This document shows positions 25,875 to 44,105 of a DNA stretch of 64,000 nt, piece by piece. Positions within the stretch are counted from its first letter, which is position 1. Each line of letters opens with the position of its first letter. The stretch is from Candidatus Marinacidobacterales bacterium. Lineage in GTDB: Bacteria; Acidobacteriota; Vicinamibacteria; Marinacidobacterales; SMYC01. The notes below the pieces were generated by a model, which made no database searches, had not been told where the DNA came from, and was given only the letters and a program-made list of their open reading frames with translations. Position numbers and translations under genes: made by a program. The stretch spans positions 6,080,001 to 6,144,000 of the forward strand of contig OZ250169.1 of assembly GCA_965237955.1 (NCBI GenBank), in the 5' to 3' direction.

Positions 25875-28226
25875 TTTTCACCCGTCCTGCTCACCGCAGC
25901 GTCATCGCCGGATCCCCCAGCAAGTGATAAATGCTCAGCAGCTCGGGGAAGGCGCCGGTTTCGGCATAGGCTTGCTGGGCGTCGAGGAGCGCATCTCCGA
26001 GGCGCCGGTGGCCTCCGTTGAAGAGCTCTTCGAGAAGCGCCTTGTGGTAAAGGTTCGCCGGGCCATTCAGGCTCAGCCCGCTCGGCGACAAGGCTGCGAT
26101 CGCGCCCTTGTCCCTGGCTTGGACGAGCTCCTCGGCGAGTGAGTTGAAGTACGGGAAATGGAAGTAGCCGTTCAGGCAGTTCATCGTGAGTAGGAGCGGC
26201 TGCTGGGACTGGGAACCGAGTGAGGCGACGTCGCTTCTGTTGAAGAAGTTCTCGTCTGCCCACAGGTGAATGCCTCCGTGACCCAAATAGCTCACGAGCG
26301 AGGCTCCTTCGTCGAAGCTTTGCAGAATCGCATTTCGCGTCGCGTGGGTCCCGAGCTGGCTCAGGTAGATCTTCTCTGGATTCTTCGAAGCCAAGACGGT
26401 TGCAGCCAGCGCGTCGGCGTCCGCCTCGAAGTTTCCGGCGCGGTCCGGATTGTCCGCCACGAGCACCACCGCTGAGCGATCTAAGCCCGCCTCTCCCGTC
26501 TCATAGGCCACGATCTTCTCGACCACCGCCTGGATTTCATCGACCGTCGCCGCCGGCAAGCGTCCAATCGCCAGATCGGGAAGCATGTCGTCGCCGTTCA
26601 CCGCGGCATAGCTGGGGTCCGACGCCGTCCAGAGATAGGACGTCTTCACCATTCGAGGCGGCACCTGGTTCGTCACTCCCGTTTGCAAATGGTCCTTGAA
26701 GTCGAACGTCGCATCGCCCAGAAGCAGCACGTAGCGCGGCGAGGGTTGTCTCCAATTGTGATAGGCGTAGCTCAGGAAATCCTTCACGGCCTCGGGCGTC
26801 GGCTCACCGAAGCCGAACTCCGAATAGACCTCCTCGATCGACACCGCCTTGACCTTCAGCCCCCCGCTCTGCCTCAGCTCCAGCAAGGGTATCGCCGCTC
26901 GAAGGAATGCCTCCGGGCCGATAACTAGGTAATCGGCGCGATTGCGTGTGTTCTTCAGACGGCTCGTCCTGGGCTTCGTCACCGCGGGGTGATAAACCGC
27001 TTCCGGGCTCACCGCGAGATAGCTACGGCCGGACTCGGCGCGGAACCGGAACATGCCGTCGGCTCCGTCTTCCGTGTCGAGCAACCAGCGCGGCTGCGCT
27101 TCGCTCGTATCCAAAACGTGCGTCCCTGCTACGAGCCCTGAGAGCTCCGCCGCCCCGGATGCACTCCAGCGACCTTCGAGTCGGCCATCGCCCGTGAGCG
27201 CGACGCGCGGATACTCCACCGCGTAGCGGTCGAGCATCACCATCGAGTACGCCGCTTCGGTGTCTCCCACGTTCTTGAGCTCCAGGAGGTTGTCTCCTTC
27301 TTGCAGAAGACCTGGCATTAGATCCACGTCGATCTTGTTTGCCCGCTTGCCATCCCAGCTCACTTCCGCAACCAGGCTCCCGTTCACATACACCCGCACG
27401 TGATGATCGGGATTGGCCCTAAAATCACTCACCCCCTGGAGCCACACGCTGAGTTTCGAGGGCTCACTGGGTGCGGGCGCAATCAGTGCCAGAGCACTCA
27501 CTTCAAACGGGTAGCTCTTCACCACCGGAGCAAACAACAGGTCCCACAACCATAGATCGGGCGCTTCGAGAAGCGCTGCCTGGTAGTAACGGTTCTCTTC
27601 CCACTCCGCCCGATGCCAGTAGAAGCGGGTAGGCTCTCCCGAAGGCGCTGCCGAGATTTCCGGCATGCTCTCCCCGGCCTGCCCCATCTCGAGCTCATAC
27701 ACCGCCTCGCTGCCATAGGGATTTGCCGATGCGCCGTCACTCATAAAGTAGAGCGTCGAGCCCGGCTTGAAGCGACGCGAGCTCGGCTCCAGGTGGAACG
27801 CCACCGTCTTGCTGCGTATTCCAGCCATCGTGAACGCCGAATCCAGAGCAAGCTGAACAGCGAATCCGGTGAAGCCGAACGCTCATCGAAGCGATGAAGT
27901 GTTGGGTGACCTCCTTCCCACTGATTGAAAACGTGAACCTATCTTACCTGCGTGTTGTGTAGCAAGGGGCGGCAGGTCGGTGCCGGAGGGAGCGGGCGTA
28001 AGGAAAGACGCGAAGCGACCTTCCCGCTCCCGTAGGCAGCGACCTGCCGCGGCCGAACCCCGGGCGATGTGGGGCTGGTTTCGGGGGGTTGCTGGGGTAT
28101 GGCCTGGCTCGAGAAGACGCTTCCTGAGGCATTCTCGCGCGTCGTTTTGGCGCCGCATCGTCTGGTACCCCGGGTTTGGCGGTTTCACCCGTTTTTATCG
28201 CATCGACGCTGTGGTCCCTCGCTCGC

Positions 28227-28985
28227 TCATGCATCGGCGTTGTCAAATGCCTTTGGCGCAGCCTTGGTCTTTCTCAGAGAAGCTCCTTTGAGAGTGATGC
28301 GGTGCGCGCTGTGGAGAATGCGATCGCAGATAGCGTCTGCCTGGTTTGGGTCGCCAATCGCTTCGTGCCACTGCTTGAGCGGAATCTGGGTCGCGATGAG
28401 TGTGGAGCCACGCTCGGCGCGGTCTTCGATGACCTCCATTAGATCCCGTCTCTCCGATTCTTTCAGCGGGTGAAGCAGCCAATCATCGATAGCCAGTAAG
28501 TCCAGCTTGGCGAGTTTCGTCAAAAGCCGGGCGTAGGAACCATCACCACGAGCGACCGCGAGCTCGTGGAGCAAGCGCGGTGCTCGCACGTAGCATCCGG
28601 TGAAGCCGCGACGACAGGCCCGCTCCACGAAGGCGCAAGCCAAGAACGATTTGCCAATCCCCGTCGGGCCGGTGATGAGCAGGTTATGGCGCTCACCGAC
28701 AAAGCGGCAGTTGCCCAGGCTCAAGATCTGTTCGCGGTTTAAGCCTCGAGGCGCTTGGAAGTTCACGTTCTCCAAACATGCCGGATAGCGGAGCTTTGCC
28801 GCTCGCAGTCGTCGAGAAAGCTTACGCTGTTCGCGGGCGGTCCACTCGGCATCGACCAGGAGTCCCACACGTTCCTCGAAGCTCAGCTCCTTGTATTCGC
28901 TCGAGCTCAACTGGGTTTCGAACGCGGACACCAAGCCGAACAACTTCATGGCGTTCATCTTTTCTATCGTTTCGGGTGTCAGCAT
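28227..28985 (-). CDS. istB: IstB AAA+ transposition helper ATPase
   Basis: ITGPTGIGKS, LLAIDDW, ADAICDRILH; ATG at 28985 overlaps the istA stop. Confidence 0.95.
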   Translation of the reverse strand: MLTPETIEKMNAMKLFGLVSAFETQLSSSEYKELSFEERVGLLVDAEWTAREQRKLSRRLRAAKLRYPACLENVNFQAPRGLNREQILSLGNCRFVGERHNLLITGPTGIGKSFLACAFVERACRRGFTGCYVRAPRLLHELAVARGDGSYARLLTKLAKLDLLAIDDWLLHPLKESERRDLMEVIEDRAERGSTLIATQIPLKQWHEAIGDPNQADAICDRILHSAHRITLKGASLRKTKAAPKAFDNADA

Positions 28986-30535
28986 CGGGACTCTCCTCCT
29001 TCGTAGTGATCCGCGCCTCGGATGTTCTCGTGCTCCTCTCGCGGTTTCGCTTCGGCGTCCGATTCGAGCACCACACGATCCAGACCAGCCGAGAGAATGT
29101 TTTTCACCGTGCGATAGCTGTAAGAGCTCAAAGCTTCCGCTCGTGCGCAAGCGGCCTCGAGACGCTCACTGCCCCAGCGGCTGCCTAGTCGCATGACTCC
29201 CAGGCAAGAGCGAAATCCCTGCTCCGGGTGAGGCCGACTCTCTAGAATCCCCGCAACCAGCCTTCCCGTGGCGCGACCTGACTGCTCCGCCCAGTGGAGC
29301 AGCCGCGACGGCGTCCACTCCAGGTGCTCCCGATGCGAACGTGGCATATGCTCCGGGTTCGTGGAGTAGTGCCCCTTTCCTTTCTTGCGGGGATGCGACG
29401 CGACGCGCTTTCCCTTGAACAGGACCTCCACCACCGAGGCCGTCACCCGTGCCTCGACTTTCTCGTGAATGAGCTGATAGGGAACGCTGTACAAGTTGTT
29501 CTCCACCTCCACGTGGTAGTCGATGTTCACTCTGCACCGCTTCCACGTCGATAACTCGTAGCTCTCCTGCGGTAGCGGTTTCAGTACGGGCCGGTCTAGC
29601 CTTTCGTACAACTCCCGCCGACTCACACCGAGCTTCTGCATCGGACGCGCATTCAGGACCTCTAACTTCTCCCAGATGGCTTCGTTCAGTTCCGCCAGGC
29701 TGAAGAACGTGCGATGACGAAGCACCGCCAGGATCCAGCGCTGCGCCACCTGCACTGCCGACTCCACCTTCGCTTTGTCTTTCGGCTTGAACACCCGAGC
29801 CGGGACCACAACCGCACCGTAATGCGTCGCCAGCTCTTCGTACGTCCGGTTGATCCCTGGCTCGTAACGGTCCACCAAATCCACGCCGCTCTTCAAGTTG
29901 TCCGGAACCCAGATCTCCGTACTGCCACCGAAGTAATCCGACATCCCCTTATGGGCCTTCGCCCACGATTCCAGCGACTGGTTCAGTGTCGCTTCGACGT
30001 AGGTGTAACTGCTCGCGCCCAACGTCCCGACGAACAGCTCCATTTCGACGAGCTCTCCTGTTTTCGGATCGACGATGTGAGGCTTCTTCCCCGAAAAATA
30101 GACGAATGTCTTCTCGCCTGCTCGATGCCGTTGACGCATCGTCGGGTTCAGCTTCTTCTTCCACTGACCGTACAGCTCGCAATAACGGCTGTAGCCGTAC
30201 GCTCCCGGCTTATTCTCCGCGTACTCCACCCACAGCTGCAGCAACGTCAGCTCTCGGTGACGCCTCAGCTCCTCGTGGATGTGGGCATAGTCCAGACCCG
30301 GCCGTGCGCCAGACGAGCCCGGCGGCGGAAACAGCCCTGCCTCCAGCTCCCCTTCGCTCAGCTCCTCCGGGAGCGGCCAGCTCAGACCACCCTTCTTCGC
30401 CTTGGCCAGGTACTCACTCACCGTTCCAACCGCCACGCGAAGTGCCTTTGCGATCATGCGGTGAGTAAAACCCAGCTCGTACTTTAACCTTAGAACCTCT
30501 CGTATTTTTCTCATCGATAACCTCTTAGCTGCCAT
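28979..30535 (-). CDS. istA: IstA transposase (first catalytic Asp apparently replaced by Tyr)
   Basis: MRKIREVLRL HTH, HRAGEKTFVYFSG, VPDNLKSGV, PKDKAKVES, NLYSVPY. Confidence 0.93.
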   Translation of the reverse strand: MAAKRLSMRKIREVLRLKYELGFTHRMIAKALRVAVGTVSEYLAKAKKGGLSWPLPEELSEGELEAGLFPPPGSSGARPGLDYAHIHEELRRHRELTLLQLWVEYAENKPGAYGYSRYCELYGQWKKKLNPTMRQRHRAGEKTFVYFSGKKPHIVDPKTGELVEMELFVGTLGASSYTYVEATLNQSLESWAKAHKGMSDYFGGSTEIWVPDNLKSGVDLVDRYEPGINRTYEELATHYGAVVVPARVFKPKDKAKVESAVQVAQRWILAVLRHRTFFSLAELNEAIWEKLEVLNARPMQKLGVSRRELYERLDRPVLKPLPQESYELSTWKRCRVNIDYHVEVENNLYSVPYQLIHEKVEARVTASVVEVLFKGKRVASHPRKKGKGHYSTNPEHMPRSHREHLEWTPSRLLHWAEQSGRATGRLVAGILESRPHPEQGFRSCLGVMRLGSRWGSERLEAACARAEALSSYSYRTVKNILSAGLDRVVLESDAEAKPREEHENIRGADHYEGGESRC

Positions 30536-30596
30536 TTCCTAGATCGTCCTCCTTCCGGGTACGACCTAGAGTTGCCTTGAAACGTGCTATCGATGA

Positions 30597-30755
30597 GCGT
30601 TCGCGATGCCGGAACCGGCGTTCACGTTGCCTGGAATCCGTGTTCACCTTCCCCGGAATCGATGTTCACGATCCCCGGAATCCGTGTTCACGATGCTTTG
30701 GAATGGATGTTCACCTTCGGCTGGAATCTGCGTTCACGATGCCCCGGAATACGCA
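30597..30755. repeat. IS21 terminal array of ~22-bp transposase-binding repeats
   Basis: About seven imperfect tandem copies of GTTCAC.at.cc.GGAATcc; related inverted copies at 27813-27890. Confidence 0.85.
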
Positions 30756-33700
30756 GTCTCGCCCTGGCGGCTCAGCCGCAACGTCTTCGCGCGCACACCG
30801 CGACGACCGCGCATCACGTCTTCATAGCGAACACTGTGAAGACCTCTCTTCGTGGTCCTGAGACGCGCCACCACCGTGCGCCGGTCGTGGCTGCGCTTTC
30901 TCGTGTTAACGACGCCCGCGCACGCCGTCCGTCGTGAGCTCCGAAGGCTCGCGCCCGCGGAACGACAAGCGAACCACCAGACGTCGCGCCAGCAAGAGCT
31001 GTCCCGTCGACTGGTCCCAACGTAGCGGTGCGAGTTCCACCAGCGCCTTTTTCGCTTCGCCCTGGAAGCCCACGCTCACGATTCGCGCTGCGTCCGACGG
31101 GCTCAGACCTTCTCCTCGAAACGCCCTCTTCGCTCGACGCCGGGCCGCACGGATCGTGCCACCCGGAGTCGCCACGATCTCCGGGAGTTCTGCATCCGAC
31201 GGGCGCAGACCCGCGAACGCCTCCACCCGGCGCGCCTTCACCGACGCGAGCTTGACCTTGCGCCCCGCGACCGCCTCCACCCACGTGCGTTTCACCGGGA
31301 CGTCGGGACCGATGCTCTCCGTCAGCGTTTCGAGTCCCGGGACCACCAGCCGCACCGTGCCATCCTCGAGAGCATCGGCGTAGAACCCCTCGGTCACAAG
31401 CTCTAGCACCACGTCGTGCCGCGAGCGACGAACGACTCGGAGCGTGTTCTGCTCGGGCTTACCGAAGGTGATGCGGGCTCCCGTGCTGTTCGCATCCTCG
31501 TCCCCACCCGAGACTTGTCCCGACTCCGGCGACGGAGTGGCTCCGGCTTGAGGTGTGGCGGAAACGGGTCCGTGGCGATCGGTCTTCCCGGTGGTCTCGA
31601 TGTCTTCCAGCTCGTAGTAATACGTCACACCGTTCGTGAGTCCCACGTCGCGATAGCTGTAGCTTGCGCCAACCGGTGACGAACCAAGGCCGGGTATCGG
31701 TGTCTCTGTCAGGCGCTCGTACGCTCCATTGCGCGACGTCGCCCGGTACAAATGAAATCCGAGATTGTTCAGCTCCGACGCGGTCTGCCAGCTCAGCTCT
31801 ATGGCCTTGTCCACGCCCTGCGCCTCGAATGCGCTGAGCTCCACGGCCGTTGGAATCGGGAGCGCAAAGTCGAAGGTCTGTGCTGCTGCGGTGATGTCGC
31901 CGCAATACTGAAACAGGAGTATGTCCGTCTTGATTAGGGCCTCGGTCGGCGCAGTTGTGTAACTCGCTCCATTTACCAGATGCGCACGAATGTAATAGAG
32001 GTCGGGGCTCCCGTTCACCGAGTACTCTGCCCAGTTCGCTGGATCGGCCTCCCAGTAGACGGTCCCTTGCACCTTCGTTAGAGAATCGGTTTCGTCGGTG
32101 AAGTTCAATACCGCTTCCAGGTCATCCCAGGCGCCGGTTGTTCCGTTCCAGTACTCCCACACCAAATCACCGGCACCAACCCCAGTACCGACCGCACTGA
32201 GTGCGATATTCAGTCCGCGAAACTGAGAGTCCGCTCCAAAGTAGGCGTACTCACCACGGTCATTGCCGTCCACTCCGTCGAAAGCGAGCTGGAAGTTCAG
32301 AGTCGCGTTGGCCAGGTACTCGTTGGAATCGCTGGTCAACCCTCCGTGGGCCAGCGGCGTCGGGGTCGTCGACGAGCCCCCGTAGCTTCGCACCTCATCG
32401 TAGATACCCGGAGCGAAAGATGGCCCGCCGGGCGCCTGCAGCTTTCCGACGTCGAAAAACGCCGTTATCGTCAGGTTGGCTGCGATATAGTCCAGTGCGG
32501 GATCCGTGTGGGGTGGCTCGACTCCGTTGATGTAAAGCCTCTGCTGGGTGGCGAGCGGCGCGCTCTCGTCCCACTCGATCCGCAGGTGTAGCCAGTCGCT
32601 CGTCCGCCAGCTGTAGTTCGCGGGACTCACCGACAGCAACGAGGTGGCCCCGCTGGCGACGATCTTAAAAGAAAGACTGTTATCCGCTTCCTTCCGAAGC
32701 AGCCAATGGTTGCTGCCGTCGACGTAAAAACCAGCGATGGTGTGCGCCGTTCCGTCGGTGTTGTCAAAGTTGGGTTGAAACCAGAATTCGAACGCTCCGA
32801 TCACCTTGTCGAAATAGGTAGTGGGAAAGCTGATGATTTCGTTGATGGCCGAGACCTGTGCGCCGTCGCCGTAGCGGCCTTTTACGAAAGTAACAGTGCC
32901 CATAACAGTACCTGCGCTCCCCACGTCGGGACTCGTCACTGCCGCGGCGTCCTGCAGCGAGGAGTGCCAGAGAAGATCCTGCGCAAAGTGCGCTCGCGAC
33001 ACAGGCTTGAGATCCGTCTTGAACTCGGCGTCATTGTTGAGGGTCGTCCCCTCGAGCGTGACCATCGCCGGGTCCTGGAAAGAGCGCCACTGACGAATCT
33101 TGAAAAACGGTTCGTAGCGTATGGGGGTTCCCGGCGTGCCCAGGCCACCGTCGATGTCGAAAGTCAACCCGTTGGCCATATCGAACTCCAACGCATAGAC
33201 CGCTTCGGACTCGTTGTAGAAGTCGGATGGCCCAGCCGTATTCTCACTCGGGTGGAACCAACCACCCCCTGCGGTCGGAGCGGCCGGAGTGGCCAGGTCA
33301 TCCGGTCCACAGGTCGCGCAGGCGGTCCGAGGTCGGTAGTCGTCCACGCGTCCGGTCACCGCGGGGTCGGTGTTGTCGATGAGGTTCGTGGGCTTGAAGT
33401 AGTAAAGGAGATGCCAATTCTCGTTGGCGGGCAGAGTCCCCGAATTGGTCTCCTGCCACGCGGTCTCTTCATACTCGTTGACCGGACCATAAAACGAAAA
33501 GACCGTGTCCGCGGCGGCCCAGTCCTGATACAGGATCTGGAGAAAATCGGTCTTGGCTCCTGACGCCTCGATCTTTGAAAGCGTGAAGTCATCCGTTCCC
33601 GGCGGACCGGCACCGATGAGCCCGCTTTCGCGGTACTGAGCCCAGCCGTTGAGAGGCCCCGAGCCCAGCTTGTGAACGCTGATCTGCAGCTGCTGGTTTG

Positions 33701-33870
33701 TATAGGTGACGCTGCTGGTCGTCTTCCGCTCCCATCCAAGCGCCAGCCTCCCCGTGGCATAAACGCTGTGGTCACCCATAGTCTTGACTCCACCCAGTAT
33801 GGTGCCGCCTGACGAGACAAAGAAGGACTCCTGCCGCAAGCGCACGCGTGTGGTGGTGGCCTCGAGCAGA

Positions 33871-35315
33871 GGAGGTGCCCCCACCATAGTTGAAGGTTCG
33901 AGGTGGTGGCGGCTCCTGACACATGGTTTACCCGACTTTGGCGTGCTTGTCGAGCGCTTGATTCTCAGTGACCTCCGCTAACTTCGCTTCGAGGATCGGT
34001 AGCGATTGGTATCCAATGATACGACGGAAATTTTTCTCCGTGGCGAGCAGAGCCGAAGCGGCCCATCTCAGAACCATCTTGCCATTGCGCCAGCGGGTGA
34101 CGCGACGGGTACGACCTCGCGCACCGCTGAAGCACGACTCGATGATGTTCGTCGATCCAAGGCAGCGTTTCAGAGATGCGGGGAGGTCGAGCTCGTTGAT
34201 GGTGAACATCTCGTCGAGCCCCTCCCGGATGCTCTCCGCCGCCGAGGGGTAGTCGTCCTCGAGCCACTTCGCCTGTTGCTCCAACCGCGCTTTGCCCTTC
34301 TTTGCTGGGAGCTGCCAGGCCGAACGCAGGCTCGCTTGCACTTGCGGCTTCAGCTCCTGCGGCAGATAACCGAGCACATTGCGCTCCTTGTGCTTCCTGC
34401 AACGCTGGACCTTGTTGTGGGTACCGAACACAGCGTCGACGGCGACCCGTAGCGCCTTGGAGCCATCGATCACGAACAGCCGACACCGCTCTGGGCTCAG
34501 GCCTCGTTCGACCAGGTCCTCCAGCAGCGCCTTGCACACTATCTGGTTCTCCGATGCTCCATCCCGAAGCCCCAGAACATGCTTGTATCCCTCTGTATCT
34601 ACGCCGATTGCCGCCAGCGCGTGGTGCTCGCCGAAGCGAATCCCGTCCAGGTACACGACCGCGATCTCCAGCTCGTCCAGCGGATGCTCCATCAGCCCCT
34701 GCAACTGCTCCGCGCTTGCTTCCACGAACTCACGGCTCACCTCGCTCTTGCTAACCCCTACCGTCTCCGCCATCTCGGGAAGAACCGACGCGTACTTGCG
34801 CGTCGACACACCCAGCATTAGGATTTCCCAGATGCGTTGGCTCAGCCGAGACGAGTTGTTCACCGCTTCGTAGGCAGGAATCGCAACCTCCCCTCCCTCT
34901 GCCTTTCCCTTACGCCGCAGACGTGGCCGGCTCACTCTCAACTTCCGCTCCGCAAGGCTTACTACGCCACCCTGCCGGCCGTGCCAGCGAACATCGCTAC
35001 CCTTCTTCCCCGGGTGTTTCTCCCCAGCCACACTTTGGGCTGACAGATCCAAGACCGCTTCGATCGTCGCTCGGCCAGCAACGTCGATCACTTCGTCGAT
35101 CGCTATCTCGGTTCGCTCAATCGCATCCAAGAACGGCAACAGAGCTTGCCCCTTCGAGCTCAGTATCTCTCGAAGCTTCTTCCTGTTCTTCGCATCGATG
35201 ATTTGGTGATTTGACATCGTGGTGGCTCCTTTCTTTTTCCTTCACAGCCGGATTCTATCGAACCCGGCCTTAGGAGCCGCCACTCCTAACCTTCAACTAT
35301 CTCAGGGGCATCTCC
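33871..35315 (-). mobile_element. IS256-family insertion sequence
   Basis: Imperfect ~45-bp IRs (GGAGGTGCCCC...TAGTTGAAGGTT / AACCTTCAACTA...GGGGCATCTCC) and a perfect 9-bp target duplication TCGAGCAGA. Confidence 0.95.
33928..35217 (-). CDS. IS256-family (Mutator) transposase
   Basis: GVSTRKY, VYLDGI, FVIDGSKAL, QRCRKHK, STNIIES; DDE appears intact. Confidence 0.93.
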   Translation of the reverse strand: MSNHQIIDAKNRKKLREILSSKGQALLPFLDAIERTEIAIDEVIDVAGRATIEAVLDLSAQSVAGEKHPGKKGSDVRWHGRQGGVVSLAERKLRVSRPRLRRKGKAEGGEVAIPAYEAVNNSSRLSQRIWEILMLGVSTRKYASVLPEMAETVGVSKSEVSREFVEASAEQLQGLMEHPLDELEIAVVYLDGIRFGEHHALAAIGVDTEGYKHVLGLRDGASENQIVCKALLEDLVERGLSPERCRLFVIDGSKALRVAVDAVFGTHNKVQRCRKHKERNVLGYLPQELKPQVQASLRSAWQLPAKKGKARLEQQAKWLEDDYPSAAESIREGLDEMFTINELDLPASLKRCLGSTNIIESCFSGARGRTRRVTRWRNGKMVLRWAASALLATEKNFRRIIGYQSLPILEAKLAEVTENQALDKHAKVG

Positions 35316-36930
35316 TCGAGCAGATCCAGCTTCGCACTGGTGGTGCTGTAGCCAGTCTTGTATATAGTCCCTCCATTCACAATCTCATCCGTAAACAGCG
35401 TCATCTGACCGGCACCGGCCAGGCTTCCTACCAGGGGGTAAGACTTACCCGGATCCTCCTCCAGGTCGTAGAAGACGTCGAGGCCCCCACCGCTGGCTGT
35501 GTTGAAGCGCATCTCGAAGCGTCCCGACGCGACAATGGTGATGGTCCCCGCCCCTTCCGACGTGGAAAGCGGCGTGCAGACGCCGCTGCAGCTCGTATCC
35601 AAGCTGCCGTCGGTGTTGTACCTCGCGGCGGCGAAGTCGTCGTCCGACCCATTGTGGGAGTAGCCGCCGGCGACGATCTTCCCGTTCGGCTGGAGCGCGA
35701 CGGAGTCGATCCAGTCGTTGCCAGCGCCGACGGCCGTCGTGACTTTGCCGCCGGCACCGAAGCCACCGTCGAGGCTTCCGTCCGCGTTGTAGCGTGTCAG
35801 GGCGAAGTCGACGTTGGCGGCGCCCCCGTCCCAGTTGGCCCAACCGACCACAACGATCTTGTTGTCCACCTGCTCGACGACGCCATAAGCGCGGTCATGC
35901 AGGCCCGTGAAATCCGTCGTCACTCGTCCCGCCACGTTCGGTGCGTCGCCGAAGATACCGGCTGGGTTGAATGTCGTCGTGTCTACGGTACCGTCGGTGT
36001 TCAGTCGGGCGACGCCGAAGAGGTCGAAACCGATGAGCACCGCCCCGGCGAGAAGGATCTTCCCGTCGGACTGGAGCGTCATCGCGAACGCCCGGTCCTG
36101 GCCTGCCCCGACCGGAACTAGCACGGTTCCTCCGCTGAACGTCGGGTCGAGGGCGCCGCTGGTGTCGAAGCGAGCCGCCGAGAAGTCGTCGTTGGCGCCG
36201 TTGTTGGCCCATCCGCCCAAGACGATCCTGCCATCGCCCGGCTGAATCGCTACTGCGGTAGCCACGTCGTCGGTAAGAGCGTTGGTGGAGACGAAATAGC
36301 CGTTGGGCGCGGCGAAGCCTGCCGTGTCCAGGCCGCCCGTCGCGTCGTAGCGGGCGACGACGTAATCCAAGGTCGCGTTCTGGGCGAACCCAGCGACGAC
36401 GATCCGACCGGTGGCGTCGACGGCGACGCCCTCGATCTCGTCGTGATTGCCGGTAATGTCGCTCGTCGCTTTGCCGAGGATTCCGAACGCGCTGTCCAGG
36501 CTGCCGTCGAGGTTGTAGCGTACAATGGCGAAGTCCCGAGTGACGTTCGTCGCATGCCCGGCGACGACGATTTTTCCGTCGGGTTGGATGGCAATGGCCT
36601 CGGCACGATCTTGACCGCCGAAGAAATCCGTCGTCACGATCCCGTTCGTACCGAAGGAGAGGTCGAGGCTAAAGTCGGGATTGTAGCAGACGACCGCGAA
36701 GTCGTCGTTGCCACCAACGAAGGCGTAACCTGCGAGAACGATCTTCCCATCTGGTTGGACTGCGATGGCAGTGCCGACGTCGGCGACGCCGATCGGTGTC
36801 GTGACGACACAGTTCTGTGCAGAGCTTGGGCTCGAGACGCCAACCACCACGAACGCAGCGGCCACAGCGAGCAGACGTGTCGCGGAACTTCGAAGGCTGG
36901 ATCCGTTAGACATAAGTCCGGGAAGGCAGG

Positions 36931-36946
36931 TGCAAGAACAATGCCG
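36931..36946 (-). promoter_or_regulatory. Putative sigma-54 promoter of giant gene A
   Basis: Minus strand CGGCATTGTTCTTGCA (GG-N10-GC). Confidence 0.55.
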
Positions 36947-37150
36947 GGAACGGTCTCAGGGAAGGCCATTGGACGGAGTGGGTTACGTTGAAATCGGGAG
37001 TCCCGATGATGGGAAAAGCCAACAAGGTGGGGGCTGTTTACCGCATGAAAACAACGTCAGCCCAGAAAAGTGTCGGAGATTCGGCTGACGGTGCGCTCGA
37101 TTCCGAATGAGAAGAGGGTGCAACCCTAGACGGCGAGTCTCAATTGTGGC

Positions 37151-40100
37151 TCACCGCAGTGTCATTGCGGGGTCACCGAGGAGGTGATAGATGGTGAGCA
37201 GTTCTGGAAAGGCACCGGTTTTTGCATACGCTTTCTGCGCGGCCAAGACCGCATCGCCCAGCCGCCCGTGGCTCCCATTGTTGAAGAGTTCTTGCAACAG
37301 CGCCTTGTGGTAAAGGTTCGCCGGGCCATTCAGGCTCAGCCCGCTCGGCGACAAGGCTGCGATCGCGCCCTTGTCCCTGGCTTGGACGAGCTCCTCGGCG
37401 AGCGAGTTGAAGTACGGGAAATGGAAGTACCCGTTCAGGCAGTTCATCGTGAGCAGGAGCGGCTGCTGGGACTGGAGACCGAGTGACGCGACGTCGCCGG
37501 CGTTGAAAAAGTTCTCGTTCGCCCACAGGTGAATGCCGCCGTGACCCAGGTAGCTCACGAGCGACGCTCCCTCGTCGAAGCTTTGCAGGATGGCGTCTCG
37601 AGTAGCAGCGGTGCCGAGCTGGCTCAGGTAGATCTTCTCGGGATTCTTCGAAGCCAAGACGGTTGCAGCCAGCGCGTCGGCATCCGCCTCGAAGTTGCCG
37701 GCGCGGTCCGGATTGTCCGCCACGAGCACCACCGCGGAGCGATCCAAGCCTGCCTCTCCCGTCTCATAAGCCACGATCTTCTCGACCATCGCCTGGACTT
37801 GCTCGACCGTCGCCGCTGGCAAGCGTCCAATCGAAAGATCCGGCAGAATATCCTCGCCGTTCACCGCGGCATAGCTCGGGTCCGACGCCGTCCATAGATA
37901 GCTCGTCTTCACCATCCGAGGCGGTACCTGGTTCGTCACTCCCGTCTGCAAATGGTCCTTGAAGTCGAACGTCGCATCACCGAGAAGCAGCACGTAGCGC
38001 GGCGAGGGTTGTCTCCAATTGTGATAGGCGTAGCTCAGGAAATCCTTCACGGCCTCGGGCGTCGGCTCGCCGAAGCCGAACTCGGAATAGACTTCCTCGA
38101 TCGCTACCGCCTTGACCTTCAGCCCCTCGCTCTGCCTGAGCTCCAGCAAGGGTATCGCCGCTCGAAGGAATGCCTCCGGGCCGATAACCAGATAGTCGGC
38201 GCGATTGCGTGTGTTCTTCAGACGGCTCGTCCTGGGCTTCGTCACCGCGGGGTGATAAACCGCTTCGGGGCTGACCGCGAGATAACTACGGCCGGACTCG
38301 GCGCGAAAGCGCAACATGCCGTCGGTTCCGACTTCCGTGTCGAGCAACCAGCGCGGCCGCGCTTCGCTCGTATCCAAAACGTGCGTCCCTGCTACGAGCC
38401 CTGAGAGCTCCGCCGCCCCGGATGCACTCCAGCGACCTTCGAGTCGGCCATCGCCCGTGAGCGCGACGTGCGGATACTCCACCGCGTAGCGGTCGAGCAT
38501 CACCATCGAGTACGCCGCTTCGGTGTCTCCCACGTTCTTGAGCTCCAGGAGGTTGTCTCCTTCTTGCAGAAGACCTGGCATTAGATCCACGTCGATCTTG
38601 TTTGCCCGCTTGCCATCCCAGCTCACTTCCGCAACCAGGCTCCCGTTCACATACACCCGCACGTGATGATCGGAATTGGCCCTAAAATCACTCACCCCCT
38701 GGAGCCACACGCTGAGTTTCGAGGGCTCACTGGGTGCGGGCGCAATCAGTGCCAGAGCACTCACTTCAAACGGGTAGCTCTTCACCACCGGAGCAAACAA
38801 CAGGTCCCACAACCATAGATCGGGCGCTTCGAGAAGCGCTGCCTGGTAGTAACGGTTCTCTTCCCACTCCGCCCGATGCCAGTAGAAGCGGGTAGGCTCT
38901 CCCGAAGGCGCTGCCGAGATTTCCGGCATGCTCTCCCCGGCCTGCCCCATCTCGAGCTCATACACCGCCTCGCTGCCATAGGGATTTGCCGATGCGCCGT
39001 CACTCATGAAGTAGAGCGTCGAGCCCGGTTTGAAACGATTCCCCTTCGGCTCCAGGTGGAACGCGACCGTCTCGCCCTGACGGCTCAGCCGCAATGTCTT
39101 CGCACGCACACCGCGACGGCCCCGCATCACGTCTTCATAACGAACACTGTGAAGACCTCTCTCCGTGGTCCCAAGACGCGCCACCACCGTGCGCTGGTCG
39201 TGGCTGCGCTTTCTCGCGTAGCGACGGCCCCGTACGCCGTCTGCCAGAATCCGCTCCGTGGGCTCGCGCCCGCGGAACGAGACCCGCACCACCAAACGGC
39301 GCGCCAGCAGAAGCTGCCCCTTCGTTCCATCCCAGCGCAGAGGCGCGAGCTCTACCAGAGCTTTCTTGACGTCCCCCTGGAAGCCCACGCTGACGATGCG
39401 CGCCGCGCTCGACGGGTTCAGACCGTCTCCTCGGAACGCCCTCTTGGCTCTACGCCGACGCTGTGCCACTCGCACCGTGCCCTCCGGTGTCGCTACGATC
39501 TCGGGGAGCTCCGCACCCGACGAGCGTAAACTCGTGAACACGTCGACTCCTCCGGCTCGAACCGAGAGAAGCTTCACCTTGCGACCAGCTACGGCCTCGA
39601 CCCACGTGCGTTTCACTGGAACTCCAGGTGCCGTGAGCTCCGCCAGAGATTCGAATCCAGGCACCTCCAGCCGGACCGAGCCGTCTTCCAGGGGCTCCGC
39701 GTAGAAGCCTTCGGTCAAGAGCTCCAACACTGCCGAGGTCTTGTCGCGCTTGACCACTCTAAAAGAGTTTGCCGTCGGGTCCCCGTAGGTGATGAGAGAG
39801 GTGGGGGCGGCTTCATCCGAAGCGCTACCTCCCGAGTCCGTGTCATCTCCGCCACTCGACACACGTGCCATCGGTGTCGCCGACACCGGACCGTGTAGCT
39901 CCATCTTGCCCGTAGTATCGATGTCTTCCAGCTTGTAGTAATACGTGACGCCGTTCGCCAGTCCCGTATCCTGATAGCTGTACTGCGCTCCCACCGGTGA
40001 GGAGCCGAGCCCCGGAATCGCCCTCGCGGTGATCTGCTCGTAGGAGCCTCGAGCCGACATGGCCCGGTACAAATGAAAGCCGAGTGTTGTCGAGCTCTGA

Positions 40101-43100
40101 GCCGGTGCGCCACTCGAGATCTACCGCAGCGTCCGAGGGCAGCGCCTCGAAGGACAGAAGCTCCACTGCGGTGGTGGCGAGGATGTCATCGGCACCGATG
40201 TCCCAGGGAACCGTCCGTGCTCCTGCGTCGATATCAAAGTTGAAGATCGTGCTCAAGTTGGCGCCGACATCCTCGGCCGTGCTGCCGCTAGTAATGTGCA
40301 GGTCGATACCCGGTGCCGCGTCGTCGACGAAGTTCATGTTCGCGAGCACCGGCTCCTGGATGCCGTTCGGTGCGCCTTGATTGGGACTGTGGGTCAACGC
40401 GGTCCCGTCGCTCGAGAGGTTGTGGCTGCTGGCCGGATCCACCGAGTCCAGGGGGTCACCCCTGAAGTCGAGTCCGCCGTTGAAAACGGAGATGTTGCCG
40501 CGAAGCAGCAGGGTCGCGGCTGCCGAGGCGCCGAGGACCTTGTTGATGCCGTTGCTGACGTTGGCGTAGAACGTGTTGTTAAGGACACGGAAGCGGCTGC
40601 CCGGCAGCAGGGAAACCGGGTCGAGGTACAGGCCGCACTGGTCGTTGCTGTAGACGAAGTTGTTGTAGACGTCGACGCGCCCGTCGTCGTCGTAGAGTGC
40701 CACGCCGCACCCTCCGACGTCGTGGAGAAGGTTACTCCGCAGGACGACCAGCGACGATGTGCCGGCGGCGAGGCCGTCGTTCACTTGGATCCCCTCCCGC
40801 CCTCCCGCTGTGTTCGTAACCTCCATCCACTCGACGGTCACGAAGTCGTCCTGGATCTGGATCGCGTCGTTCCCGAGTCCACCCAGGTCGATCACCACTC
40901 CCTGCCCGGGGAGGCCGTAGTGACGGTTGTCCCCGTCAGCGGTGAGAGTGATGTCGTGGGCCGAGTCGGTCGTGGAGCCGTCGATGATCACCCGGGCGGT
41001 GAAGACACTGTCTTCATACGCGATCCCGATCTCCGCACGCCCGTCGGCGACGAGGCTCGATGACGCGACGGGGAAGAACGGGCAGGGCGTGCCCCCGGGC
41101 CCGTCGATGCAGTCCTCCCAGGCGGCGAGGGTCGTAAACTGGCGGGCGATGCGGTAGGTTCTTGTCGGGAGGACTGCTGGTCCCTGCGTAAGGAAACGTG
41201 AGCGTGAGCTGCGTGTCCGAATCCACCCACAAGATGGTGTAGTTGACGCCGTCGATGTCGATGAGATCGCCCCGGCCACGGTTTTTGGCTTTCCAGGCGG
41301 CCCCCCCCACCCCGGTCACCGCCGCCGCCCCGGCGGTCACCGTGACCTGCGTGCCCCCCCCTTCGGCGACCGGTTGGAAAGTCCCATAGTCGGGCGCCGT
41401 CCCAATCGAGCGGTAGTTGGTTGGCGGCACGAACTCATCCGCTCCGATATCCCAGCCCACACCTGTGGGTCTCAGCGCTCCATCGATATCACAGCAAAAC
41501 GAGGCGGATAGATCGGAGCCAATATCAATAGCGTCAGCGGTAGCTTTTAAGTGGAAGTTGGGCGGGGCTCCGAGGTGGTCTACGAATTGGTCACCGGGAA
41601 GTTTACCTTGGTTGGCGACAGGCTGAGCGGTGGCGTCGGAAGACATGTTGTTTTCCTGAGCTCCAGTTACCACGCCGAAGTCCACGCCGACGTTGCCCAT
41701 CGATAGGGTGTTCCGAACATCATAGACACCCCCGATTTCTTGAATGCCTTTATCTAAATTCCCATAGATCGTGCAGTTGTCAATCGTGGCGCTGCCCCCG
41801 CCTGCGGAACCCGCAATCCCATCATTGCCCCCACCGTAGATGAGACTATTGCGGAGGGTAAAGCTAACGCCGGCCCCGGTGTGGTCAATACCATGATTGC
41901 CCATGTTGTAGATAATGAGATGTGTAAGAAGGACGTTTGCAGCGTCGACCAGCACCACCTCACTGGCGGGACCGAGACGCGTCAGCTCGAGCCACTGGAC
42001 GACGGTATAGTCGTCGAGGATGTCGATTCCGGTGCTGGGCACGTCTAGTCCATCCACAACCACACCGGTTCCCTCGATGCCTGTATGGCGTTGGCCCGAA
42101 GCCACGGTCAGGAGCATGTAACGGATCGCGTCCGTCGATCCCGGCCCTAGCCCATTGTCTATGATGATACCGGTGGTGAAGGGACCGTCCTTATAGGCGA
42201 CACCGATCTCGCGTCGGTTCTCCCCTACCAGGTTTCCGTTGCGGGCGTCTTCCCAATCCTGAAGCGCAGTGGGACCAGAGTAGGCCCGGGTGATGGTAAA
42301 CGCCACGGTTGGGGTGGTGTGGTCCACTGTGGCTGGAGACAGGAGAGTGACCTGGAAATCGGAATCGCGCTACAGGATGAACAAGATCTCGCCCTCGATG
42401 ATCAGCTTGTCCCCCAGACCTATGGCGCCTATCGCTGTCGGCAGCGGGAGGACGACGGAGAATGTGACCGTGGTGGAGCCTAGCGGCACCGAGGCAGTTC
42501 CACTGGGGTGAAGGTTTCCGGTGTTGGTTCCGATCGAGCGGAAGTTGAGGACGCAATCCGCTCCCGAGAGCTCAGGTCCAACGCTATAGAAAGTAGAAGG
42601 ATCGTTTTGATTATTGTGTTCAGTCTGTATCCAGTCCGCCGAGCGGGGCACATCGGAGACCCGAACCTCGTCAATTCCGCCATTCCATTCCTGACCGGTG
42701 ATGATATCCGAGCTATTTCCAATGTGTAGCTCTCTCGTGCCCGTCTGAGTGGACCCCGTGTAAGGGGCGGAGTTCCTCAGCAGGCCGTCCACGTAAATTC
42801 TCAGCAAACCGGCGGTCGAATCCGCTACCCCTACAACGTGATGCCAGAACCCGTCGGTGATGAGAGCCAATGGGGCGATGACGCTCTGGGTATCGTCGAC
42901 GAAAAAGGCGAGATCGCTCGCGTTGGCTTTGCCTAACCAATAGTTTCGGCTGCCGACCGGCCCCCACTTGTTGACGACGACTCCGACGTCCGCGTCCGCA
43001 TCGGTGGTCTTTACCCAGGCCGACGCGGTGATATCTTGCAGGAATCCTGAGGGTGGGATCATCCGGAACATTGACGTGTCGCTCGTTGGTGTCATCAAAC

Positions 43101-43741
43101 TCCAGGCTTCCATCGATCTGTCCGGGTACCTGGTTTGCCGTCAGGAGTGAACTCGCACTTCCTTCGTTGGGGTTCGAGGTGCTGTCAAGGAATTGAGGAG
43201 CCGGATCGGCAGGGTCTTCTTTCAAATGCCAGACAGCGCGGTAATTTAAATTCCGAACCCCGACTACGTTTTCTTGAGAAGAAACAATGGAAGCGTCGCC
43301 GTAGTACATCTCAATGAGTGTATCGGTATTGTAAGAAAGGACGGGGATTCTCACCCAGGCAACGAACCTCCCTGTGACAGGATCGTATGCCTCGATCTCG
43401 TGGTCGAGATTCGCGACCGTGCAACCCTGCCTGAAGACGATGTCGAAGCCATTTGCATTTTCTACTTTTCCACCGTTACCCGTCGTCCTCAGATCAAGGT
43501 CCGTGAGGCTGACGAGAACAGGGAAACCGGCAAGGTCAGCGGAGCCACTGACCTTGGTGTTGTCGATGGTGACCTGCTTGCGGAAACCAAACGCCGCGTC
43601 TGCGGATGGGACGAAGATGTGAAAGAGGAGGAAGGCGATCGCGGTCAGAAACGTTGGCCGAGTGCCGAGCCTCGCAGCAGCAAAGGCATCGCCGGCCGAG
43701 CGGCGGGTAGGTACCTTTTCAGTATAGTGGATTCTACACAT
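37151..43741 (-). pseudogene. Giant exported protein B (~2195 aa reconstructed): signal peptide, DUF2341, LamG, two beta-helix-like modules, TTAVEL Ig-like domain, C25 peptidase; three +1 frameshifts and an in-frame TAG
   Basis: ORF fragments 42713-43741, 42370-43113, 41014-42327, 39843-41279 and 37151-40072 join into 6588 nt after removing 3 bases (~43035, ~41160, 40085) and reading through TAG at 42370-42372. Confidence 0.85.
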
Positions 43742-43866
43742 TCCGGCGGCCCCCTCACGCAACGAGCGGGACTTTCTTTCGAACACGGCCTTCGTGACCC
43801 TGGCCGCTCTTTAGTGCGCCGTTTCTGCTTGCAACTATTGAAGAAAGTTGTTTTGTCCACCCGACT

Positions 43867-43882
43867 TGCAAACGCTGCGCCA
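43867..43882 (-). promoter_or_regulatory. Putative sigma-54 promoter of giant gene B
   Basis: Minus strand TGGCGCAGCGTTTGCA (GG-N10-GC). Confidence 0.62.
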
Positions 43883-44062
43883 AACAACCCCACACTCGCA
43901 GCTCCTTGCGGAAAGGCACCTTGGGAGAACACACTCTCTTGCGGCACCGAGGAAATCGTGGGGAATCTCCCTCTCCGGCTCACCACTTTCGCCCACACAC
44001 TCGCATTCGCACCGAGGGAAAGAAAAGATTGACGTCGGACAGGAAAAGCGAATCTGGCGTCC

Positions 44063-44105
44063 AGGAGCCGCCACTCCTAACTTCAACTGCCCGTGGGGCA
44101 TCTCC
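44063..44105. mobile_element. Solitary IS256-like terminal repeat
   Basis: AGGAGCCGCCACTCCTAACTTCAACT...GGGGCATCTCC closely matches the IS256 end at 35272-35315; no transposase adjacent. Confidence 0.8.

What the first reader, a model, noticed from the sequence alone, without database searches (positions are those of the whole stretch)
25891..43882. Candidate new system: tandem giant surface proteins with swappable ~1200-aa cargo fused to a constant Ig-like + C25 (gingipain/PorU-like) module
Seen: two adjacent genes reconstruct to ~2205 and ~2195 aa. Their N-terminal halves are largely unrelated (delta-60-type repeats + LamG-like versus DUF2341 + LamG + two beta-helix modules). Homology starts abruptly at (P/T)TAVEL.(A/S)FEA...L.W.T.SEL.NLGFHLYRA and continues through a C25 domain with an intact His/Cys dyad (YLGHGG, MNCLNG). 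Known: in Bacteroidota a similar PVEL..F.A...W.TASE.NN.GF domain occurs in type IX secretion cargo, and the C25 protein PorU cleaves cargo and attaches it to a surface glycolipid. Inference: each adhesin-like cargo may carry its own cis-acting protease/transpeptidase, a self-processing or self-anchoring display module with exchangeable cargo in a non-Bacteroidota host. No T9SS C-terminal domain follows the C25 domain.
Basis: partly seen in the sequence, partly recalled or inferred. Interest (0 to 1): 0.8.

Follow-up and report, generated by a model that had tools for sequence, protein, structure and literature searches.

The report
Giant proteins carrying their own sortase
Two now-broken genes belong to a large bacterial family in which very different giant proteins, predicted to be exported, each end in the same small tag-like domain plus a protease resembling PorU, the surface-anchoring enzyme of Bacteroidota, so intact members likely cut themselves at the tag and may fasten their own cargo to the cell surface without a type IX secretion channel.

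Summary
Observation confirmed, with one omission: both genes are pseudogenes (A: three frameshifts and a stop; B: IS256, IS21, one frameshift). A's four lesions and B's frameshift recur in independent short-read contigs. Read through, they give ~2,196 and ~2,210 aa: unrelated cargoes, then an 84% identical ~1,000-aa module. A model of an intact relative resolves the module as FN3-like tag + gingipain-type prodomain + PorU N-terminal domains + C25 catalytic domain. The family is large: 600 long homologues; 120 analysed give 41 cargo classes, and 117 end at C25. No SprA was found. New here: in other phyla the same tag ends 26-47 unrelated proteins per genome (28 of 30 checked have a signal-peptide-like start) beside 0-2 stand-alone PorU-like genes, the one-sortase/many-substrates pattern. 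In the host's order tag and C25 pair 1:1 (41 of 43). The junction is T|A-V, like PorU's cleavage motif. Best reading: a cis-fused, T9SS-independent sortase module; cutting and anchoring are inferred, not shown. This scan noted the same fusion earlier on other DNA (e1-9959460). Nine paper searches found no description.

The parts
37151..43741 (-). Gene A, pseudogene (~2,196 aa read-through): signal-peptide-like start, cargo, constant module
   Evidence: lesions present in contigs of runs X1 and X2 without differences
40176..43741 (-). Cargo A: DUF2341 + LamG + two beta-helix modules; frameshifts near 43040 and 41160, TAG at 42370-42372
   Evidence: Pfam; intact relatives P0002, P0083
39872..40175 (-). 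Tag domain A (FN3-like, starts T-T-A-V-E-L); frameshift near 40083
39263..39793 (-). Gingipain-type prodomain, gene A
   Evidence: model of relative, residues 141-321, matches Kgp prodomain 5mun_A Z 14.8; boundaries
38201..39187 (-). PorU-like N-terminal domains, gene A
   Evidence: model 323-1014 aligns to PorU 24-788, Z 22.9; NF033707 below cut-off
37154..38200 (-). C25 catalytic domain, gene A; YLGHGG 37552-37535, MNCLNG 37447-37430; ends at the stop
   Evidence: PF01364 E 3e-82
25891..36913 (-). Gene B, pseudogene (~2,210 aa read-through)
   Evidence: intact-cargo relatives P0018, P0051
31854..36913 (-). Cargo B: signal-peptide-like start, delta-60/DUF5122 repeats, unnamed ~760-aa module with a LamG-like part (32813-32382); split by IS256
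33871..35315 (-). IS256-family element, 9-bp target duplication, 34 copies in the assembly
31551..31853 (-). Tag domain B (starts P-T-A-V-E-L), intact
30948..31472 (-). Gingipain-type prodomain, gene B; frameshift just downstream near 30908
27813..30755 (-). IS21-family element (istA, istB) inserted in the PorU-like N-terminal region, 38 copies in the assembly
25894..26937 (-). C25 catalytic domain, gene B; YLGHGG 26289-26272, MNCLNG 26184-26167; ends at the stop
   Evidence: PF01364 E 2e-83

Best explanation
[quoted passage not shown] Shown: the architecture, cargo variability, conserved His/Cys, conserved junction, 1:1 tag:enzyme pairing here versus many tags per enzyme in other phyla, no SprA match, and pseudogene status of both copies. 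Inferred steps: (1) Sec export, then outer-membrane passage by a non-T9SS route (two secretins are present; route unknown); (2) latency held by the gingipain-type prodomain until it is removed; (3) cleavage after the conserved Thr, in cis or by a neighbouring family copy; (4) acyl transfer to an unknown acceptor, as PorU does with A-LPS. Fusion would replace the PorV shuttle/CTD delivery step by tethering each substrate to its own enzyme; cargo modules are shuffled by recombination, and tandem copies homogenise the module.
For: Model of an intact relative (pLDDT 88): best Foldseek hit PorU 6za2, E 1e-28, 774 columns; residues 323-1014 align to PorU 24-788 (Z 22.9, rmsd 6.0, 563 aligned), catalytic domain to RgpB (Z 42, rmsd 2.2, 318 aligned). 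His and Cys invariant in 104 of 104 aligned rows. One tag per protein in 120 of 120; junction T 118, next A 91, next V 120 of 120, matching the PorU motif T/E/D/N|G/A/S (PMC10202324, passages) and the +2 Ile noted in P. intermedia (PMC11969387, passages). Trans form: 26-47 tags per genome against 0-3 C25 matches, which are stand-alone signal peptide + PorU-like proteins without a tag; 28 of 30 complete C-terminally tagged ORFs have a signal-peptide-like start versus 48 of 185 other ORFs. Cis form: 41 of 43 strong tags in four genomes have a C25 within 7 kb downstream. The tag also precedes known sorting signals: T9SS CTD (L086, P0284) or a membrane anchor (L082, P0242). No transmembrane stretch in any of 120 modules, lipobox-like pattern in 3 of 120, so surface retention would need another anchor.
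Against: No cleavage or linkage was observed; all is comparative. PorU cleavage is described as sequence-independent and in a disordered 9-residue linker (PMC4804311, passages), whereas here T-A-V abuts the first strand and the cargo linker is often only a few residues, so the conservation may be structural. The tag resembles ordinary FN3 repeats and can occur in 2-4 tandem copies. One of five trans genomes (G056) has 31 tags and no C25 match (draft); these five were chosen for having tags. A prodomain is a gingipain, not a PorU, feature, and the catalytic domain superposes better on RgpB than on PorU. No acceptor, PorZ-like partner or export route was identified; the PorV-like barrel is under the cut-off and is also present in 4 same-family genomes without a C25 match.
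Confidence: 0.45

Rival explanations
1. Modular extracellular protease: the chain stays whole apart from prodomain removal; the cargo targets the C25 enzyme to surfaces or glycans and the FN3-like domain is only a spacer or stability domain.
For: Gingipain-type prodomain and RgpB-like catalytic domain; tag resembles FN3 repeats; Ig-like domains before CTDs act as spacers in gingipains (PMC4804311, passages); cargoes are lectin/propeller/beta-helix types.
Against: Does not explain dozens of unrelated tagged proteins per genome beside one or two stand-alone enzymes, the PorU N-terminal domains, or up to about 15 near-identical enzyme copies per genome.
Confidence: 0.25
2. Cut-and-release: the C25 domain cleaves at the tag but hydrolyses or transfers to small amines, freeing the cargo into the medium, as PorU does for some substrates.
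For: Same tag/enzyme pattern; PorU releases a subset of cargo (PMC10202324, passages); no acceptor or PorZ-like partner identified.
Against: Adhesin-like cargo types fit surface retention better (inference); stand-alone genes keep a conserved kinase/rSAM/peptidase neighbourhood that could supply an acceptor (untested).
Confidence: 0.2
3. The tag is an export or folding signal read by a secretion apparatus other than the C25 enzyme; the fused enzyme processes other proteins or cross-links family members into a surface layer.
For: Tag-rich G056 lacks a C25 match; tandem arrays of at least seven giant genes; secretins present.
Against: Strict order cargo-tag-enzyme in 120 of 120 and in separate C25 groups of the tree.
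Confidence: 0.1

Closest known systems
PorU sortase of the Bacteroidota T9SS (PDB 6ZA2; NCBIfam NF033707, NF052324)
   Same: C25 His/Cys domain preceded by the same N-terminal domains; junction resembles its cleavage motif; folded beta-sandwich tag as probable substrate mark.
   Different: Fused behind its own cargo; extra gingipain-type prodomain; lacks PorU's C-terminal domains and CTD; scores 225-231 bits against a cut-off of 420; many copies per genome; no SprA match.
Gingipains RgpB/Kgp (1CVR, 4IEF, 5MUN)
   Same: Prodomain fold and catalytic fold (Z 14.8 and 42).
   Different: PorU-type domains sit between prodomain and catalytic domain; no IgSF or CTD after it; cargo is N-terminal.
T9SS type A CTD (TIGR04183)
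   Same: About 100-aa beta-sandwich at the C-terminal end of unrelated exported proteins.
   Different: No CTD model matches the tag; the tag is FN3-like and in T9SS organisms lies before the CTD.
Cis-acting autoprocessing domains: Hedgehog Hint, FrpC self-processing module, MARTX cysteine protease domain (recalled, no call)
   Same: A C-terminal or internal domain cuts its own chain; Hint and FrpC also attach the released part to an acceptor.
   Different: Different folds or families; none has a stand-alone trans counterpart acting on a shared folded tag, as far as recalled.

Membership tests
Peptidase family C25 (clan CD) | PF01364 over the curated cut-off, full length | tested here: met
   277 and 281 bits, cut-off 23, profile 1-374
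Peptidase family C25 (clan CD) | His/Cys dyad | tested here: met
   present in both genes; invariant in 104 of 104 rows
PorU (T9SS sortase) | NF033707 over cut-off | tested here: not met
   225.5 and 230.6 bits versus 420
PorU (T9SS sortase) | PorU N-terminal domains before the catalytic domain | tested here: met
   model of a relative aligns to 6za2 24-788, Z 22.9, rmsd 6.0, 563 aligned
PorU (T9SS sortase) | Own C-terminal CTD | tested here: not met
   both genes and 117 of 120 homologues end at the C25 domain
PorU (T9SS sortase) | Cleavage plus transpeptidation to A-LPS | not testable with these tools
   needs biochemistry
Type IX secretion system | SprA/Sov translocon in the genome | tested here: not met
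   0 matches in G000 (98% complete, one contig); control genome G055 scored 398 bits in the same call
Type IX secretion system | GldN/PorN ring | tested here: inconclusive
   0 of 5 genomes but no control rang
Type IX secretion system | PorV shuttle | tested here: inconclusive
   one full-length barrel at 62.7-66 bits, cut-off 90
Type IX secretion system | Many type A CTD proteins | tested here: not met
   4 weak matches in the genome, 2 just over cut-off, none in this family
Gingipain | Prodomain directly followed by catalytic domain, IgSF and CTD | tested here: not met
   prodomain present, but ~340 aa of PorU-type domains intervene and nothing follows C25
Gingipain | Acidic S1 pocket (Arg/Lys specificity) | tested here: inconclusive

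The most novel reading that the evidence does not exclude
The FN3-like TAV tag and PorU-like C25 enzymes form an undescribed, T9SS-independent protein-anchoring system spread over several phyla, in two modes: one stand-alone sortase serving dozens of tagged proteins (Thermodesulfobacteriota/deltaproteobacterial genomes) and self-anchoring fusions in which every cargo carries its own latent sortase (Acidobacteriota, Desulfobacterales and others). The T9SS attachment step would then be one offshoot of an older, portable sorting chemistry.
Probability: 0.4. Interest if true: 0.85.

Novelty: new variant of a known kind. Interest (0 to 1): 0.68.

Why it matters
PorU is the known Gram-negative sortase-type transpeptidase and is treated as a T9SS part in the papers read. 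A PorU-like enzyme paired with a different, unnamed folded tag in genomes without a SprA match would separate the anchoring chemistry from the T9SS and explain the many C25 genes outside Bacteroidota (135 of 301 sampled genomes of the host phylum have a match). It would also name a sorting signal carried by dozens of proteins per genome in uncultured lineages. A single chain holding substrate, tag and enzyme makes PorU-type cleavage and ligation testable in vitro without the attachment complex, and could serve as a protein-ligation tool. The two copies in this window are themselves dead; the interest lies in the family.

Tried and rejected
Assembly artefact: rejected. Contigs of runs X1 and X2 (two studies; one may be the source) span gene A's four lesions, and an X2 contig spans B's frameshift, with 0 differences; a relative in X6 lacks the extra base near 43036. 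Genome-wide frameshift noise: 10 of 62 compared genes were flagged; by my reading 5 are shadow frames and 1 is a cargo piece, while no family copy in this genome has an intact cargo-tag-C25 frame. Single-sequence fold: pLDDT 34, discarded. Tag against Pfam: no member of 30 over a cut-off; PDB by sequence: one weak FN3 hit, E 0.0035; ESM Atlas: unnamed clusters only. No complex model of tag with enzyme was obtained, so binding is untested. No RNA holder listed. GldN search and the second SprA search had no ringing control. The PorV-like barrel follows family kinship (26 of 26 in f1/f2, 0 of 28 in f3), not C25 presence. Swap point at TAVEL: rejected for the latest A/B exchange. The C25 tree puts tagged fusions in three or more groups, but the backbone is weak and monophyly was not tested. 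The PorU structure paper was not held.
Full report
1. Observation. The window lies in an 8.13-Mb single-contig genome, 98% complete. Two minus-strand genes fill 25891-43741. Gene A has frameshifts near 43040, 41160 and 40083 and an in-frame TAG at 42370-42372. Gene B is split by IS256 (33871-35315, 9-bp target duplication), a frameshift near 30908 and IS21 (27813-30755). Read through with X at the breaks they give 2,196 and 2,215 aa. Their only BLASTP similarity at E<=1 starts at TAVEL and runs to the stop, 84% identical. Cargo A is DUF2341 + LamG + two beta-helix modules; cargo B is delta-60/DUF5122 repeats plus an unnamed module with a weak LamG-like match. Both end in a full C25 domain with YLGHGG and MNCLNG.

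2. The lesions are real. Contigs from runs of two studies (one may be the source) span A's four lesions, and one contig spans B's frameshift, without differences; a relative lacks the extra base near 43036. Ordinary genes are mostly intact: 10 of 62 flagged, of which I read 6 as shadow frames or cargo pieces. In contrast, none of the 14 C25 matches in this genome lies in an intact cargo-tag-C25 frame. So the window holds two pseudogenes of a family decaying in an IS-rich genome.

3. The family. A search restricted to proteins of 1,709-4,880 aa gave 600 hits among 8,000 scored candidates; only the best 120 were listed and analysed. All 120 have exactly one tag domain; 117 end within about ten residues of the C25 end, one slightly later, two are truncated. 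Cargo is 708-2,649 aa and falls into 41 classes at 80% mutual coverage; 4,376 of 7,140 pairs share no cargo similarity, including 36 of 130 pairs whose modules are at least 70% identical. Cargo domains include LamG, beta-helix, DUF5122, SBBP, RCC1, FG-GAP and YncE propellers. A crude test finds a signal-peptide-like start in 83 of 120 and no transmembrane stretch in any module. The closest named records are labelled Ca. Marinacidobacterales / Acidobacteriota. C25 matches occur in 23 of 55 genomes of the order (14 of 18, 8 of 8 and 0 of 28 by family, own genome aside) and 135 of 301 sampled genomes of the phylum.

4. Anatomy of the module. An AlphaFold2 model of an intact relative (L027, 64-row alignment, pLDDT 88, pTM 0.81) has PorU as best Foldseek hit (E 1e-28). 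VIA-align places residues 141-321 on the Kgp prodomain (Z 14.8, rmsd 6.4, 165 aligned), 323-1014 on PorU 24-788 (Z 22.9, rmsd 6.0, 563 aligned) and 668-1014 on RgpB (Z 42, rmsd 2.2, 318 aligned). NF033707 matches below cut-off. His and Cys are invariant in 104 of 104 rows. The first ~105 aa form an all-beta domain with a weak FN3 match and no Pfam family over cut-off. The module is therefore tag + prodomain + PorU N-terminal domains + catalytic domain, without PorU's C-terminal domains or CTD.

5. The tag behaves like a sorting domain. In Thermodesulfobacteriota/deltaproteobacterial records it is the last domain of unrelated proteins. Five such genomes, picked because they had tags, hold 31, 35, 47, 26 and 47 matches against 0, 1, 2, 1 and 3 C25 matches (the three being two genes). 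The four stand-alone genes read in full are signal peptide + PorU-like body + C25 with no tag. Of 30 complete C-terminally tagged ORFs, 28 have a signal-peptide-like start versus 48 of 185 other ORFs of the same loci. In the host's order the ratio is 1:1: 41 of 43 strong tags in four contiguous genomes have a C25 within 7 kb downstream (weak tag matches were dropped, and 28 C25 and 11 tag rows were not listed). Elsewhere the tag precedes a T9SS CTD or a membrane anchor. The junction is T in 118, then A in 91, then V in 120 of 120 fusions; in 43 trans tags it is T 35, L 30, I/V 43. PorU cleaves at T/E/D/N|G/A/S (PMC10202324, passages), with a conserved +2 Ile in P. intermedia (PMC11969387, outline and passages).

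6. No T9SS channel found. SprA: none in G000, G056, G057 or G058, while control G055 scored 398 bits; none in five more genomes, without a ringing control. GldN was inconclusive. Type A CTD: four weak matches. One PorV-like barrel scores under cut-off and tracks kinship rather than C25. Two secretins are present; the export route is unknown.

7. Mechanism. Most likely (0.45): after export the prodomain-restrained enzyme is activated, cuts after the conserved Thr and transfers the cargo to an envelope amine, the fusion replacing CTD/PorV delivery. Architecture and distribution are shown; every catalytic step is inferred from PorU. Against: PorU cleavage is reported as sequence-independent and in a disordered linker (PMC4804311, abstract and passages; PMC11285876, passages), while T-A-V abuts strand 1. 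The tag resembles FN3 repeats and can be tandem. G056 has tags but no C25 match. The prodomain is a gingipain feature. No acceptor is known. Rivals: intact modular protease (0.25), cut-and-release (0.2), tag as export signal with another role for the enzyme (0.1). Cargo exchange is by recombination and need not break at the tag: A and B are 49-77% identical over the first 300 module columns and 89-99% over the next 700. The C25 tree separates tagged fusions into at least three groups on a weak backbone, compatible with repeated fusion or fission; this was not tested.

8. Novelty. It works like PorU + CTD but fails PorU and T9SS membership (no CTD, below cut-off, no SprA match). Paper searches for C25/gingipain/PorU with Acidobacteria, Chloroflexi, Desulfobacterota or Marinacidobacterales gave no relevant paper; some searches listed T9SS and CTERM papers, seen as listings only unless named above. 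The library lacks most subscription journals and the PorU structure paper; no supplements were read, and bioRxiv supplements were closed. Cis-autoprocessing analogues (Hint, FrpC, MARTX) are recalled, not checked. Verdict: new variant of a known kind, interest 0.68; if the tag/enzyme pair is a T9SS-independent anchoring system (probability 0.4), 0.85.

Noticed in passing
L109-L112 (stand-alone C25 loci) and L114: All four stand-alone PorU-like genes examined sit beside an HprK-related kinase-like gene and an S26 signal-peptidase-like gene, three of four also beside a radical SAM gene; L114 has kinase + rSAM + Wzc-like + O-antigen-ligase-like neighbours. All matches are below cut-off except one S26. 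Possible acceptor-making cassette.
   Followed up: partly
L114-L118: A second fused subfamily, about one per genome, with a divergent tag and no prodomain-like region; sister group in the C25 tree.
   Followed up: partly
L113, L120-L122 (G007:C1:598000-672000): Tandem array of at least seven family genes, open frames up to 6,188 aa.
   Followed up: partly
L054, L062, L072, L084, L085: Fusions in Desulfobacterales-type genomes continue after C25 with a further Ig-like domain and a Gly-rich GCFI motif, resembling a Cys-containing C-terminal sorting signal (label recalled).
   Followed up: no
G000 whole genome: Insertion-sequence bloom (38 IS21 and 34 IS256 near-full copies) and decay of every copy of this family (14 C25 matches, none in an intact gene).
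   Followed up: partly
window 25894-27810 versus 37154-39070: The last ~600-700 aa of A and B are 89-99% identical per 100 columns, against 49-77% in the first 300: likely recent gene conversion between the tandem copies.
   Followed up: yes
P0242, L082:7529-8401: Proteins ending in tag (or a bare P-T-A-V-T stub) + hydrophobic helix + basic tail, a tripartite sorting-signal shape with no NCBIfam match.
   Followed up: no
L097:1408-2337 (G000:C1:4790686-4791612): PorV/PorQ-like barrel below cut-off, next to kdsB- and pyrG-like genes, conserved in 26 of 26 genomes of families f1/f2.
   Followed up: partly
window 44060-44105: Short repeat resembling the IS256 end upstream of gene A, about 35 copies in the genome.
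   Followed up: no
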